From positions 102,920,001-102,984,000 of the forward strand of contig NC_042997.1 in the NCBI RefSeq assembly GCF_006345805.1: 64,000 nt of DNA, written 5' to 3'. Positions 1,662-61,084 of the stretch are shown here, one piece after another; position 1 is the stretch's first letter, and each line of letters begins with the position of its first letter. The translations under genes and the position numbers were made by a program. Source of the stretch: Octopus sinensis (Eukaryota). Under the pieces are notes generated by a model. It ran no database searches, was not told the DNA's origin, and was given only the letters and a program-made list of their open reading frames with translations.

Positions 1662-1704
1662 GTGCTGATGGAGGGACTAAAAAACCCTGAAATATGGCAT
1701 ATAC
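1662..1704 (+). ncRNA. Decayed minimal type I hammerhead-like motif
   Basis: GUG CUGAUGG AGGG-loop-CCCU GAAAU AUGGC AUA UAC. A9 is replaced by G and stem I is short. Confidence 0.35.
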
Positions 1705-2309
1705 ACTCATTATCCGTTTCTATCTTCGATCTCATTGTTTGTTTACATTTGACATACATGCTGGAATTATCTTCTTTAGTTGTTGTTTCTTTTATAGATT
1801 TTAATCACTGCTAGGGGTCAGATTTTGCTTACTTATTGCACGAATGATCTTGGCTAACAAACATTTTCCAAATAACTATATATCATATATGTGAGTCTCT
1901 ACTTATTTCTATTTAGTATGCAGAAGGTGCCCGTAAGATATTTATCTCCCAGCCCCACATTGTTGATAACAATAACATATATAGATAATTGAAATCTTTT
2001 GTTCATGATTTTTTTGTTACATAATTTGACAGTGCTTAATTATTTTAGGAAGGTAGGTGTGATTTGAGGTTATTGTGCTTTTTTTTTATTCAATCACAAA
2101 GCAGCACTGAAGTTCAAATATCTTAGTGCTTACGGCATATTAAATACTAATTGACATACGTCGGCCTTAATCTTAAAACAGTCAATTTAATCACCTGAGT
2201 ATTTGTGTGTATTCTCTCTCTCTCACACATACAGGCACACACACACACACACACACACACACACACACACACACATATTTATTTAAGTATACCCATGCAA
2301 CAATATGTG

Positions 2310-3520
2310 TATGTGTATATATGTTATAATTTAGAACAAACAATAAAAGGTTGTCATTATAGTACTCGGAGTTTCGAATGTCGGAGCGAAGAGCTGCGAT
2401 GCATTCTCACCGACTTTTAATGGCAACAGACGCTATGAAAAACCGTTGAATAAAAAGGCAGAAAAATAAAAAATAAAATAGAAAAAATACACACAACCAT
2501 ATTCTCACAATACATAGACATAAACCTCCCGCGTTCACAACGTCTACATACGTACACAACCACACAAACATGTATATATACATGCACATACACTCACACA
2601 AACATATATATATATATATTAAAAGATAAAAATTTAATGGAAGTTAAGACATATGCAAAGCTTGTGCAGGAACATAGTAAAAATTTGGATTCTAGCCGTG
2701 ATCTTGGGGAGCGATCTTTCCATATTACAAAGACGGCACTTAACATTACCGTTGGTATAAGGTTTACACTTGGCTAAGATCTTCCGTAAATCCTGTAGTT
2801 GACACCTTGTTCTTTGAAGAACCATATATAACTGGATAATTCGGTAGTTTTCATTAATTCCAGTGTCTGAAGCTTAAGGTGTGATTGTTGAACCTTGCTT
2901 TGAAATTTGTGAGACCCACATATCTCCTGGATGAAACTGTATTATTAGCGTCCGTAGAATTTACGGTGGCTTCATAAATAATGGCCTCGGTCATACAGGC
3001 TACATTTAACGGGCACACGTCTATATCCCTGCAGAAACAGCCGGCTCCGTGTTGTTGTGCTGCATTGTGTGTAATTATGTCTTTAAAGTTTGGGGTTGAA
3101 CTAAAACTAATTTTTAGGTTATGTCTATTGAAGAGTTTTCTATATTTATGATGTATTGAAAATGTTTATCTATAAGTGACAAGAAATATTTACCTACATT
3201 AAAGGTCACGTCAGGGGAGTAAGGGTGTGTGAACCAGATAATTTTCCTGTATCTATGTTTTTCTATATTTCTGGCCTAATAGTGGGTGTGTAAGCTATTA
3301 CCTCTTTATATCCACTAGCTTTAAGGGCATTGTTATATAGTTGGGCAGCATGATCAAATATGTTTATTTTGGAGGAGAGGCTAGAAATACCCCTATTAAT
3401 ATTCTTAGCTATATTCTAAAACACTATGACGGGCGGGGGCAGGAACCTACATTAATATAATTAAGTCTGTCCTTTGGGTTTCTATAGGGTTTGTAAATAT
3501 GCTTTTGTAAATCTATGTGA
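2310..3520 (-). mobile_element. Degenerate Penelope-like element 3' part (Naiad-like linker + GIY-YIG + pLTR)
   Basis: Minus-strand frames give IIWFTHPYSPDVTFNVGKYFLSLIDKHF, CFCRDIDVCPL (CxCx5C), IIYEATV..RRYVGLT..FKARFNNH and KCRLCNME (CxxC), with stops and frameshifts. Confidence 0.8.
2361..2415 (-). ncRNA. Decayed hammerhead motif in the pLTR of the Naiad-like element
   Basis: AG UCGGUGA GAAUG..CAUUC GAAACUC-C-GAGU A CU. Stems II and III are good but the core is mutated. Confidence 0.5.
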
Positions 3521-3535
3521 GTGTGTATGTATATA

Positions 3536-3860
3536 TACGAGCAAAACGCCCCCCGTTCAATGGACGGTGCTGAGTTGTCAAACTTTAAAACTAAATTTTC
3601 TCAAAACAACTTGTCCGACCATCCCATAGGCCTCCCCTTTCAGAAACACTGATTTAACCTAAATTTCATACACCGTGCATTTTTCTCGCGTACGCGTAGT
3701 ATCGATCGCAATCTCTCCTGGAATCGATTTTTGTAATTTTTTCAAGATTTATACACGCCCTGATACCGTCGGTATCTACACATCAAATTTGAGCGCAATC
3801 CGATGGAGGATGCTGGTGATCCTAGAAGACACACAGACAGACGGAACGGATTATATATAT
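3536..3860 (+). mobile_element. Helentron/DINE-like non-autonomous element (HINE-like)
   Basis: Ends ..CAAATTTGAGCGCAATCCG..CACAGACAGAC..TTATATATAT into a TA tract, the usual 3' layout of such elements. Family assignment is by resemblance only. Confidence 0.45.
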
Positions 3861-4059
3861 ATATATATATATATATATAATATATATAATATATATATAT
3901 ATATATATATATATATTATATATATATATATATATATATATATATATATATATATATATAATATATATATATATATATATATATATATATATATATATAT
4001 ATATATACATATATATATATACATATATATATACATACATATATATATTATATATATAA

Positions 4060-4255
4060 GCATGAACAGAGGCAAGCATAATTTCTGTTCGACCTCACTG
4101 ATATGCTTTTATGGACCAGATAGTACTCCACCGAGCAAGGGCAAAAATGTCTTGGACATTTGCTTGAGAAATAACGTGGCGCTCACCCATACTTTTAAGA
4201 TGATACCAACGATTCTCTCGGATCATTACTTAATAGAAGAAACAATGTTTAAACG
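4060..4255 (+). pseudogene. LINE APE-endonuclease fragment
   Basis: [31 protein letters not shown] aligns with AGNTLDLCFTND..LIHNVKVRPTLLLDHNMIE of the LINE at 28.8-29.8 kb. Confidence 0.6.
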
Positions 4256-58404: not shown

Positions 58405-58559
58405 CATCGCTGGCCAGCCACGTCTTTATATAATAGTTTCACTTTAATAGTTTCAGTATTAAAGTGAAACTATTAAAGTGAAGGCATCTGACATTACAAT
58501 AGAGAGATGCTTTTGTTTCACTTTTAACAGTTAAAACTGAAATAGTGGAGAAAATATGA

Positions 58560-58737
58560 TATTGCTGTGGGCTCGCCCTAGGCAAGAAGTTAAATTTCCT
58601 TTTGCCCATGACACTACATGGACCCTAATTAAGGCATGTGTACATTTTGAATGAAATTGGTTGTGTAGTTCTCAAGTTTTAGGGATTCACACAGACAGAC
58701 AGACAGACACACATTCTCAGTTTTATATATATAGATA
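58560..58737 (+). mobile_element. HINE/Helentron-like 3' fragment
   Basis: ..TGAAATTGGTTG..CACAGACAGACAGAC..TTTTATATATATAGAT; similar layout to 3536-3860. Confidence 0.4.
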
Positions 58738-59685
58738 TACATATACAAGGTGGCCTAAAATCACAAAGGGTTTAAAATTGGTTGTGCCATTTTGGCGCAA
58801 ATTGAGGACATACCGAAGCACACACATACACACGCACACACAAGCAGACATTTTCAGTTTTAATATGTAAGATGTGTGTGTGCGTGAGTGTATGTGTGTG
58901 TGTATGTGTTTGTGTGTGCGCACGTGTGTGTACATATATATCTGAATTAATTTTCTCATTGATAAAGTGTTCCACTTCAAGCATTTTTGAACTGTGATAT
59001 TCTCATAGTTACATGAGTCTTTACACCCAATGCGGAGCTATTTCATTACACCTACAATATGAGTTGTGTTACTTCAACCATCATTAAGTTATTTCATTAC
59101 AGCCATGGCTGAATTACACTATGTCAACCAAATGAGCTGCTTTAAGGGAATATATAATGTATATAGAAAAAGTGAGTAACCACAAACAAAACAAATCGGC
59201 TTCATCAAGGTCACAATATCTTTTTCAGTACAAACACCTGTAAGTTATTTCTTTACACTCGATATTGAGATTTAACATTAAAACCAACAACAGGTTGCAA
59301 TATTACACAAAACACGTTAGCTCTTATTACAACCAACGCCTGTGTCAATGAAACTATCACCTCTCTATTTTATTGCAATCAACACTGATATTCTAGTCAC
59401 TACTGATATCTCATTACAACCACCCAGGAGGCAATGTTTCATACATATATATATATATATATAATATATATATATATATATATATATATAATATATATAT
59501 ATATATATATATTTGTGTGTGTGTATACATATATCTGTATGTTTGTGTATATACAGTATACACACACACACACACATATATATATATATGTATGGAATGT
59601 TGAAAAGGAACACACGAATTGATATATATGGAAAAAGTCAAGGTAGAAAATGTTAAAATACTTTTATAAAAAACATTTCAGTACC

Positions 59686-60144
59686 ATAAAGTAGTTGTAT
59701 ACTGTCAACTTAATGCGACAGTCCCATAAAGGAAATCATACTACTGCTATTTAGCCCTAGGAAGCAGCAACGCTTCCCGTCGGTCTTGACACATTTCTGT
59801 GTCCTTATGTTTACAAGGGGGAGACAAGCGAAGCCAGCATTAGGGACGAGATTCTGAGTCTTTCCTCGTTATCAGTCTGGGGTAGCATGGCCTGCTGGTT
59901 GGAGATGCCTATCTAGCTCTTGTAAACATATAAGAAATCTACAAAAATAGAAACAATGCATTTCTAAATATCTCAGAGAGATTTATGCCGTAGTGATACG
60001 ATAAAGTAGTTGTATACTGTCAACTTAATATGACAGTCCCATGAAGGGAATCATACTATTGCTATTTAGTCCTAGGAAGCAGCAATACTTCCTGTCGGCC
60101 TTGACACATTTCCTGTATACTTATGCTTAGAAGGGGAGACAAGC
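59686..60144. repeat. About 144-bp direct repeats (59686-59829, 60001-60144) around a 170-bp interior
   Basis: ATAAAGTAGTTGTATACTGTCAACTTAAT..GGGGAGACAAGC occurs twice with scattered substitutions. Confidence 0.8.
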
Positions 60145-61050
60145 ACCCCCACCCAGCTAAGCCTGCAACCAGAGATTAGTTTTCATAGTATTCAAATACA
60201 AGGGGCATGTTCCTTGTTTCTGCCTGTCTCTGTCTCTCTTATTTACTCTTGTAGGGGATTATTTCTATTTGTGTAATATGCATCAAGTTTTACATTATTA
60301 AAAGTTGATATATGCTTAAATAGGTTTTTGGTTACCGAAAATCCAATCCTTATTATTTTATTATTAATTATAGTACTATATCTATTAGAAGTGAAATGCT
60401 TATCTATGATAGAACGAATTACTCGGATAAGGTTAGTTCTTATCATTTTGCCGTATGGTAAGATAAGCCAGATATTATCATCCTTTTTATTGAGGCATTT
60501 CACGTTGTTTTCGTGTGTATGTTTTATATATGGAAGATGTTACGTTTTAAGGATTTTTTTTAGTTTTCTTTTATTGTTTAGTCTGTAGTTAGGTCCATGT
60601 TGATTGTAATTCATATTTATATTATCGTTATGATTGCAATTATTTCTATTTCTATGATTATGCTTATTAATGTTAATTTTCGGTTCATTTGTATTTATTA
60701 TAATCAAGTCTTCATTTACCTTGTTATTTGTCTGTGGGTTATCATTATGTGTGTCTAATTTAATTTTCTGTTTGTATCCTGCCTTAGCTAATGCTGAGTT
60801 ATAATAATCTTTATTTATATTAAAAATTTCTTGACTAGATGAAAGGTAATTAATTCTACGTTGAATATTTTTAACTAAGCAATTTGTGATTGTTTTATGA
60901 TGATAACTTTCTAAAATGGAAAATATCCCTTGCATTTGAAAGCTATGAAAATATTTTTTTAAAATACATTTCATTTAATTTTAAATTATAATAAAATAAT
61001 AAAATAAGAAGGATTGGATTTTCGGTAATTATTTTTCATACTTTACACTA

Positions 61051-61084
61051 AGTTGAAAAAGTCGCAATGACTGAAACCGGTACT
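61051..61084 (+). ncRNA. Minimal hammerhead, U3-A8 core variant
   Basis: AG UUGAAAA AGUC-GCAAU-GACU GAAAC CG GU A CU. Confidence 0.6.

What the first reader, a model, noticed from the sequence alone, without database searches (positions are those of the whole stretch)
1662..61084. Very dense, diverse population of hammerhead motifs (about 28 loci, about 18 unrelated families in 64 kb)
Seen: HHR-shaped motifs at 1662, 2361(-), 7311, 8378, 8991, 11258(-), 12770, 13945, 14947, 15938(-), 27496/27900/28298(-), 32354/34049(-), 35825(-), 39598, 40745/41983(-), 46170(-)/46247, 47433(-)/47505, 50365, 50791(-)/51156, 51395 and 61051. Apart from the core they share little sequence, and stem II ranges from about 11 to about 100 nt. 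Most sit in 250-800-bp ORF-less cassettes bounded by (TA)n. Known: PLE pLTRs carry minimal type I HHRs. Inference: many apparently unique islands between TA tracts are ribozyme-bearing PLE termini, so any transcript crossing the region on either strand meets a potential self-cleavage motif every few kb.
Basis: partly seen in the sequence, partly recalled or inferred. Interest (0 to 1): 0.75.

Follow-up and report, generated by a model that had tools for sequence, protein, structure and literature searches.

The report
Penelope retroelement ends carrying hammerhead ribozymes
The hammerhead-ribozyme-shaped motifs are real and abundant (an estimated hundred thousand in this animal genome), but they are most likely the leftover ends of a known class of jumping genes, Penelope-like elements, plus a few short non-coding relatives, and most single copies are predicted not to cut RNA.

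Summary
Confirmed as sequence, ordinary in kind; the scan noted it before, here and in other genomes. All 28 listed sites are type I hammerhead-shaped or decayed copies: 18 families, about 19 insertion events. Scanner hits at score 10 or more: 10, against 0.07 in shuffles. The core is intact in 22 of 28. An independent 800-kb sample gives about 35 motifs per Mb, roughly 95,000 genome-wide; the window is about four times that rate, partly through local duplications. Six of 18 families link to a same-strand Penelope RT/GIY-YIG frame, three form 390-480-bp tandem units (retrozyme-like), nine are unresolved. Fixed 3' ends at (TA)n, variable 5' ends, inverted partners and a tail match Penelope insertions. 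One extra: in a young family, 0 of 30 copies start at the cleavage site but 10 of 30 start in a 13-nt window just 5' of helix I; two more families show the same. This suggests short cDNAs made from uncleaved RNA that begins at the ribozyme. Cleavage of host transcripts is untested, and published assays of single minimal motifs argue against it.

The parts
1657..1711 (+). Type I HHR, C3 at 1665; A9G in this copy, family majority canonical; relatives show 390-409-bp partial tandems
2355..2421 (-). Decayed HHR (C3U, A6G), C3 at 2413; family majority canonical
2709..3531 (-). Broken PLE RT-end/GIY-YIG fragment, same strand, ending about 300 nt upstream of the 2413 motif
4628..6793 (+). Open 721-codon PLE frame: RT, CX4CX2C linker, GIY-YIG
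7311..7356 (+). HHR variant, A9C in 20 of 20 aligned copies; 3' terminus of the 4628 element
8375..8416 (+). U3-A8 HHR, same family as 61053
8991..9025 (+). Intact minimal HHR; abundant family (10 matches in 800 kb)
11257..11368 (-). HHR with long helix II insert, U4G; inverted partner of 14954
12765..12821 (+). HHR, core intact, stems damaged; relatives show 470-481-bp partial tandems
13940..13996 (+). Local duplicate of 12771
14946..15057 (+). HHR, core intact, 77-nt helix II domain
15938..16064 (-). U4C HHR with 100-nt helix II domain; relatives not searched
27323..28446 (-). 2.8 units of a 402-404-bp tandem repeat, one intact HHR per unit (C3 at 27562, 27965, 28363); retrozyme-like, 773 candidates genome-wide
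32350..32433 (-). HHR, core intact, helix II damaged; family majority complete; PLE-linked
33597..33942 (-). Broken GIY-YIG fragment upstream of 32425 (duplicate at 35285-35603 upstream of 34120)
34045..34128 (-). Local duplicate of 32425
35825..35871 (-). U4C HHR, helix II damaged; family majority complete; 5' ends cluster at helix I
39598..39652 (+). HHR whose first core bases fall in the N gap; family majority complete; PLE-linked; 5' ends cluster at helix I
40745..40828 (-). Intact HHR, 53-nt helix II domain; superfamily with compensatory changes
41984..42064 (-). Local duplicate of 40822
46170..46232 (-). Inverted arm (no tail) of a young PLE family; U4C core, extra U before GAAA
46247..46309 (+). 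Direct arm (with tail) of the same insertion; family linked to RT/GIY-YIG; 5' ends pile up just before helix I
47433..47480 (-). Inverted arm, core broken at the junction
47505..47551 (+). G3-C8 HHR, intact
50361..50396 (+). Old minimal HHR, stems damaged; family majority complete
50791..50867 (-). HHR, core intact; inverted partner of 51160
51156..51233 (+). HHR, core intact
51395..51444 (+). Old HHR, helix II damaged; family majority complete
60312..60974 (-). Broken PLE RT-end fragment between the 61053 motif and a minus-strand tail of the same family near 59611-59685
61049..61086 (+). U3-A8 HHR

Best explanation
The motifs are type I minimal hammerheads near the fixed 3' ends of many repeat families, most likely the pseudo-LTR ends of endonuclease-positive Penelope-like retroelements and of short non-coding derivatives that likely borrow their enzymes. 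Inferred mechanism: the element's GIY-YIG nuclease cuts (TA)n, reverse transcription starts at one of two fixed points 40-250 nt downstream of the ribozyme and usually stops early, so each event leaves a short, often head-to-head cassette that keeps the ribozyme and loses the ORF. Repeated waves of different families, and new insertions into the same TA tracts, give the density and diversity. The integrated copies appear to come from RNA not cut at the ribozyme; in at least three families many copies stop just 5' of helix I, likely the 5' end of an RNA started in the pseudo-LTR. Solo copies are predicted to be inactive, since helix III would form only between two copies; tandem arrays such as 27323-28446 are the ones predicted to cut and possibly circularise.
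For: Shown: excess over shuffles in the window and in an independent sample. Family majorities complete in 8 of 10 families aligned. In one superfamily of 7 sequences, 6 of 21 pairs change on both sides, 91.7% of cells paired vs 34-52% when slid, including the central pair of the helix III palindrome. (TA)5+ within 300 nt downstream in 22 of 30 sample hits vs upstream 8 of 30, random positions about 14% (Fisher p 0.0007). Fixed 3' and variable 5' ends in 10 of 10 families. Same-strand PLE coding sequence upstream: 7317 (10 of 20 loci), 46253 (6 of 20, one of them from a neighbouring element), 32425 (5 of 16), 2413 (3 of 16) (window copies included), 39596 (2 loci), 8381/61053 (window and L037). 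Direct arms end at +100 to +102 and inverted arms at +40 (one at +31, one at +99) from the cleavage site in the 46253 family, the tail signature of PMC11167929 and PMC8557442. Tail-only search: 0 of 30 copies start within 20 nt of the cleavage site, 10 of 30 at -57 to -69, hazard 0.041 per nt vs 0.001-0.002 elsewhere. Helices I and II form in the centroid folds of 8 of 9 motifs; helix III is absent or 2-3 pairs.
Against: Nine of 18 families have no ORF link or tandem unit in the 1.5-kb flanks, with a limited peptide set. No complete pLTR-ORF-pLTR copy among 14 long loci of the 46253 family. Pfam scores for RT and GIY-YIG are below cut-off. Two young ORF-bearing families carry fixed non-canonical junctions (A9C; extra U), whose activity is unknown. 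Fold z-scores are weak (-0.02 to -2.5). In five families (1665, 2413, 7317, 12771, 32425) 5' ends are dispersed well upstream rather than at helix I, though those searches favoured longer copies. The tail-only test covers one family and the best 30 of 549 candidates, including the window's own copy and possibly allelic duplicates. No cleavage, transcript end or expression was shown.
Confidence: 0.88

Rival explanations
1. Most families are independent non-autonomous retrozymes that spread through ribozyme-processed circular RNAs, with true PLE ends a minority.
For: The 404-bp family forms arrays of up to about nine units with randomly placed ends and no coding sequence; 12771 and 1665 relatives show 470-481 and 390-409-bp partial tandems; nine families lack an ORF link.
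Against: Six families are ORF-linked; most copies are solo or head-to-head, not tandem; unlinked families are mostly represented by very short copies, which cannot show an ORF.
Confidence: 0.2
2. The motifs act on host RNA: introns or long transcripts crossing such fields are cut often enough to affect processing or termination.
For: Nine window copies have intact cores and good stems; several families share the same helix III palindrome, so cross-family dimers are conceivable; head-to-tail arrays exist.
Against: No gene is known to cross the window; copies decay by ordinary mutation; published single minimal motifs did not cleave (PMC4209133), and 8 of 9 Xenopus dimers did not (10.64898/2026.07.22.740005).
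Confidence: 0.07
3. The 5'-end pile-up at helix I comes from junction chemistry (microhomology with the TA target, fold-back or a nuclease block) and not from a transcription start; this rival concerns only that step.
For: The ends fall on short A/T-rich or TAG-containing words, and many junctions are fold-backs.
Against: AT-rich sequence 70-340 nt upstream stops only 4 of 16 copies at risk, a 40-fold lower rate; both arms of head-to-head insertions end near the same point.
Confidence: 0.35
4. The motifs are chance matches to a relaxed descriptor in AT-rich DNA.
For: Loose settings do give 3-4 shuffled hits per window; a few low-score window hits (e.g. 56020, 10357, 40120) are likely chance.
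Against: More than 100-fold excess at score >=10, family conservation, covariation and TA polarity.
Confidence: 0.01

Closest known systems
Minimal type I hammerheads of metazoan PLEs (Cervera and de la Pena 2014, PMC4209133; read parts 1-2 of 4)
   Same: Type I order, stub palindromic helix III, U3-A8 variant, many unrelated families per genome, mostly solo motifs from truncated PLEs, close pairs on opposite strands.
   Different: Estimated number here about 95,000 (62,000-139,000) against 9,000 in Xenopus tropicalis and 4,000 in coelacanth, by a different descriptor; helix II domains up to 100 nt; G3-C8, U4C, fixed A9C and extra-U variants.
Endonuclease-positive PLEs: Neptune/Nematis, Hydra, Penelope/Poseidon (PMC8557442, passages; PMC3846280, passages)
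   Same: RT plus C-terminal GIY-YIG, HHR near the 3' end, 5' truncation, inverted 5' partner, optional tail, (TA)n targets; the 4628 frame has the CX2-5CxxC linker given for Neptune.
   Different: No tree was built, so clade labels are untested; no complete element was recovered.
Poseidon of Anolis, PAc (Frangieh et al. 2024, PMC11167929; read parts 1-2 of 4)
   Same: Two fixed start points of reverse transcription downstream of the HHR giving a tail; uncleaved RNA as template.
   Different: That work is in vitro with one element; the parts read report no pile-up of genomic 5' ends at helix I.
Animal non-LTR retrozymes (PMC7229834, passages and section 14; bioRxiv 10.64898/2026.07.22.740005, parts 1-3 of 5)
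   Same: The 404-bp unit is a non-coding tandem repeat with one type I HHR per unit; mussel units are 350-390 bp.
   Different: Inserted at (TA)n with a fixed 3' end; circular RNA not shown; axolotl has up to 120,000 copies but in a tenfold larger genome and two families.

Membership tests
Minimal type I hammerhead | Core boxes (3-8 pair, G5 A6, A9; GAAA; UH) in type I order | tested here: met
   Intact in 22 of 28 copies; complete in 8 of 10 family majorities, 2 fixed variants
Minimal type I hammerhead | Helices I and II with compensatory changes | tested here: met
   One superfamily, 7 sequences: 5 of 12 helix II pairs change on both sides, helix I only one-sided changes; other families not counted
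Minimal type I hammerhead | Short palindromic helix III | tested here: met
   Perfect palindrome in 24 of 30 sample hits (the score rewards it); central pair covaries
Minimal type I hammerhead | Self-cleavage at H17 | not testable with these tools
   Needs in vitro or end-mapping data
EN+ Penelope-like element | RT with C-terminal GIY-YIG upstream on the same strand | tested here: met
   6 of 18 families; GIY-YIG E 0.0005 and 0.01, below cut-off; 12 families not linked
EN+ Penelope-like element | Fixed 3' end, 5' truncation, inverted 5' partner | tested here: met
   10 of 10 families; four inverted pairs in the window
EN+ Penelope-like element | Optional tail on one arm | tested here: met
   46253 family, arms ending at about +40 or +100; other families not measured systematically
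EN+ Penelope-like element | (TA)n target at the 3' end | tested here: met
   22 of 30 downstream vs 8 of 30 upstream
EN+ Penelope-like element | Direct pLTRs flanking a full ORF | tested here: inconclusive
   0 of 14 long loci of one family are full length
EN+ Penelope-like element | Clade placement by RT phylogeny | not tested
   Only the linker motif of the 4628 frame was read
Non-LTR retrozyme (404-bp family) | Tandem non-coding units, one type I HHR each | tested here: met
   no PLE peptide upstream of 21 matches
Non-LTR retrozyme (404-bp family) | Unit-length linear and circular RNA | not testable with these tools
   Only assembled contigs of runs guessed to be RNA were available

The most novel reading that the evidence does not exclude
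The mass of solo ribozyme cassettes is a programmed by-product: reverse transcription primed at the internal start site of the 5' pseudo-LTR runs to the 5' end of an uncleaved RNA that begins at the foot of helix I, so Penelope elements in this genome print ribozyme-sized units by the tens of thousands, and the hammerhead serves as a fold at the RNA's 5' end rather than as a cutter during insertion; this genome would also hold one of the highest hammerhead densities known.
Probability: 0.35. Interest if true: 0.55.

Novelty: new member of a known kind. Interest (0 to 1): 0.3.

Why it matters
The kind is in print since 2014, so the class is no surprise. The scale is notable: about 35 well-formed motifs per Mb from at least 35 families in little over 1 Mb examined, a natural library of core and helix II variants. 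Six library searches found no paper on cephalopod hammerheads; a 2026 octopus repeat annotation (PMC13282606, parts 1-2 of 3 read, supplement not read) does not mention them and lists 893 unclassified SINE families, some of which could be such ends (inference). The role of PLE hammerheads is an open question; counting where genomic copies start relative to the cleavage site is a cheap test, and here it points to uncleaved templates.

Tried and rejected
Rfam scan: no hammerhead among the 150 of 195 rows shown. First descriptor demanded a helix III loop and missed minimal motifs; replaced. All-against-all 5'-end measure was confounded by shared TA tracts, SINEs and inversions; only the reference-based measures are relied on, and two 35865 values (L206, L212) are TA artefacts and some rows matched the inverted arm. 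Expression: no RNA holder listed on record; contigs of three runs guessed to be RNA cover part of the 404-bp unit at low depth, no joints; no conclusion drawn. Whether a host transcript crosses the window stays open. A strict scan for all six strand orders of the hammerhead found 0 in the window and 0 in 12 shuffles; it would miss split cores and minimal helix III. The U3-A8 alignment A2 mixes unrelated families and was not counted. Forty long homologues of the 4628 protein added only one ORF link. Extra window hits at 3709, 9436, 10357, 19972, 39450, 40120, 56020 score within the shuffle range and were not accepted. Local hotspot: rejected as a special locus, flanks are at genome average; six independent events vs about 2.2 expected gives p 0.025 before allowing for selection of the window.
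Full report
Setting. The window lies on a 213-Mb contig of a 2.72-Gb animal genome. It is repeat DNA: microsatellites, SINEs and LINE fragments. That the animal is an octopus is an inference from a recalled SINE and from earlier scan notes; I did not test it.

Observation. A strict minimal-hammerhead descriptor gives 4 hits against 0 in 100 shuffles; looser settings give 5 to 12 against 0.05 to 3.2. A graded scanner gives 16 hits at score 8 or more (shuffles 0.62, max 2) and 10 at 10 or more (0.07). 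It was written after seeing the window, so the independent test is 80 evenly spaced 10-kb stretches: 30 hits at 10 or more against 1 and 3 in two shuffles. For the 8 families it missed, plus 1665 and 7317, I aligned 15-20 genomic relatives each: 8 of 10 majorities give a complete motif; two young families (94-100% identity) carry fixed oddities, A9C at 7317 and an extra U before GAAA at 46253. The core is intact in 22 of 28 copies. Clustering gives 18 families in the window and 35-36 in window, sample and flanks together. In one divergent superfamily 6 of 21 pairs change on both sides, including the central pair of the helix III palindrome, which can pair only between two copies; with 7 related sequences this is supportive, not a probability.

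Density. Net 35 motifs per Mb extrapolates to about 95,000 (62,000-139,000) in the genome; the sample covers parts of 16 large contigs only, and decayed copies would add more. The window has 10 against 2.4 expected, but the flanking 200 kb have 8, the average. Tandem copies, local duplications and inverted pairs reduce 28 sites to about 19 events; some duplications next to long TA tracts could be assembly errors. The window has 5.5% (TA)n against 2.1% in the sample, though TA content and hit number do not correlate significantly across the sample (rho 0.13, p 0.24).

What the cassettes are. Motifs are polar: (TA)5+ lies within 300 nt downstream in 22 of 30 sample hits, upstream in 8 of 30, and near random positions in about 14%. 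All 10 families examined have a fixed 3' end and variable 5' ends, often with an inverted partner. Six families link to same-strand Penelope coding sequence: 7317 follows an open RT/GIY-YIG frame in the window; 2413 and 32425 follow broken fragments; 46253 and 39596 have long relatives with RT or GIY-YIG sequence; 8381/61053 is linked by the window and one sample locus. In the 46253 family direct arms end about 100 nt and inverted arms mostly 40 nt past the cleavage site, the tail that PMC11167929 ties to two internal start points of reverse transcription. Three families form short tandem units: the 404-bp repeat at 27323-28446 (773 candidates, arrays of up to about nine units, 94-99% identity) and older 470-481 and 390-409-bp units. 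Nine families are unresolved with the flanks and peptides at hand.

How it likely works. Shown: anatomy and polarity. Inferred from PMC11167929 and PMC8557442: nicking of (TA)n, priming at fixed internal sites downstream of the ribozyme, early stop, frequent head-to-head second arm. To ask whether cleaved RNA is copied I searched with the 46253 tail alone. Of the 30 loci fetched (best of 549 candidates, the window's copy included), none starts within 20 nt of the cleavage site, 4 start inside the ribozyme, 10 start 57-69 nt upstream of the site, that is 6-18 nt before C3, and 16 further up. The stopping rate in that 13-nt window is 20-40 times that elsewhere. In 39596, 10 of 15 loci (two identical) end 0-13 nt before C3, and in 35865 8 of 15 end 2-9 nt before it, with two more obscured by TA matches; these two searches required the ribozyme, so they cannot show ends at the cleavage site. 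Five other families do not show the peak (biased queries). I read this as run-off at the 5' end of an uncleaved RNA begun in the pseudo-LTR, where Drosophila Penelope has its promoter (PMC2377424, passages); microhomology or a nuclease block are live rivals.

Activity. Nothing here shows cleavage. Monomer folds give helices I and II in 8 of 9 centroids, with little helix III. Single minimal motifs did not cleave in PMC4209133, the Anolis motif needed protein and was dispensable for insertion (PMC11167929), and 1 of 9 Xenopus dimers cleaved (bioRxiv 10.64898/2026.07.22.740005). Only 9 window copies have an intact core and strong stems, and the plus strand has a 24.6-kb gap.

Comparison and verdict. 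PMC4209133 already describes massive, heterogeneous, mostly solo minimal hammerheads from truncated PLEs, opposite-strand pairs and the U3-A8 variant. This is a new member of that kind, with an unusually high count. Six searches found no cephalopod report; subscription journals and the supplements of these papers, which I did not read, may hold octopus examples. Earlier scan notes reached the same reading on other DNA. Interest 0.3.

Noticed in passing
window 7311-7356: A9C is fixed in 20 of 20 aligned copies of a young ORF-bearing family (648 candidates); a second GAAA follows helix I, so an alternative fold is possible.
   Followed up: partly
window 46253-46303: The core of the 46253 family is complementary to a 6-nt stretch in the 3' arm of helix II, a possible inactive alternative fold; an ATG opens at helix II and a splice-donor-like word lies about 17 nt past the cleavage site.
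   Followed up: no
window 57275-58475: PLE RT-end/GIY-YIG fragment on the plus strand interrupted by a long low-complexity open stretch; no motif found downstream.
   Followed up: no
window 30869-31391: Broken PLE GIY-YIG fragment of another type, plus strand, with no hammerhead after it.
   Followed up: partly
window 12281-14656, 32269-35692, 40470-42875: Local tandem duplications of 1.2-1.7 kb next to long TA tracts; indel-rich differences could be long-read assembly errors.
   Followed up: no
window 18807-19543: Four copies of a 184-bp tandem unit, 98% matches; no hammerhead hit.
   Followed up: no
window 40010-40245: Inverted repeat with a low-scoring core at 40120 (score 7.0); may be a further decayed family.
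   Followed up: no
L100, L270: 46253-family copies inserted directly at the TA end of 7317-family copies, showing nesting of different families in one tract.
   Followed up: no
window 9153-11333, 20410-25363, 28787-30426: LINE fragments (RT or endonuclease matches for two of them) interleaved with the cassettes.
   Followed up: no
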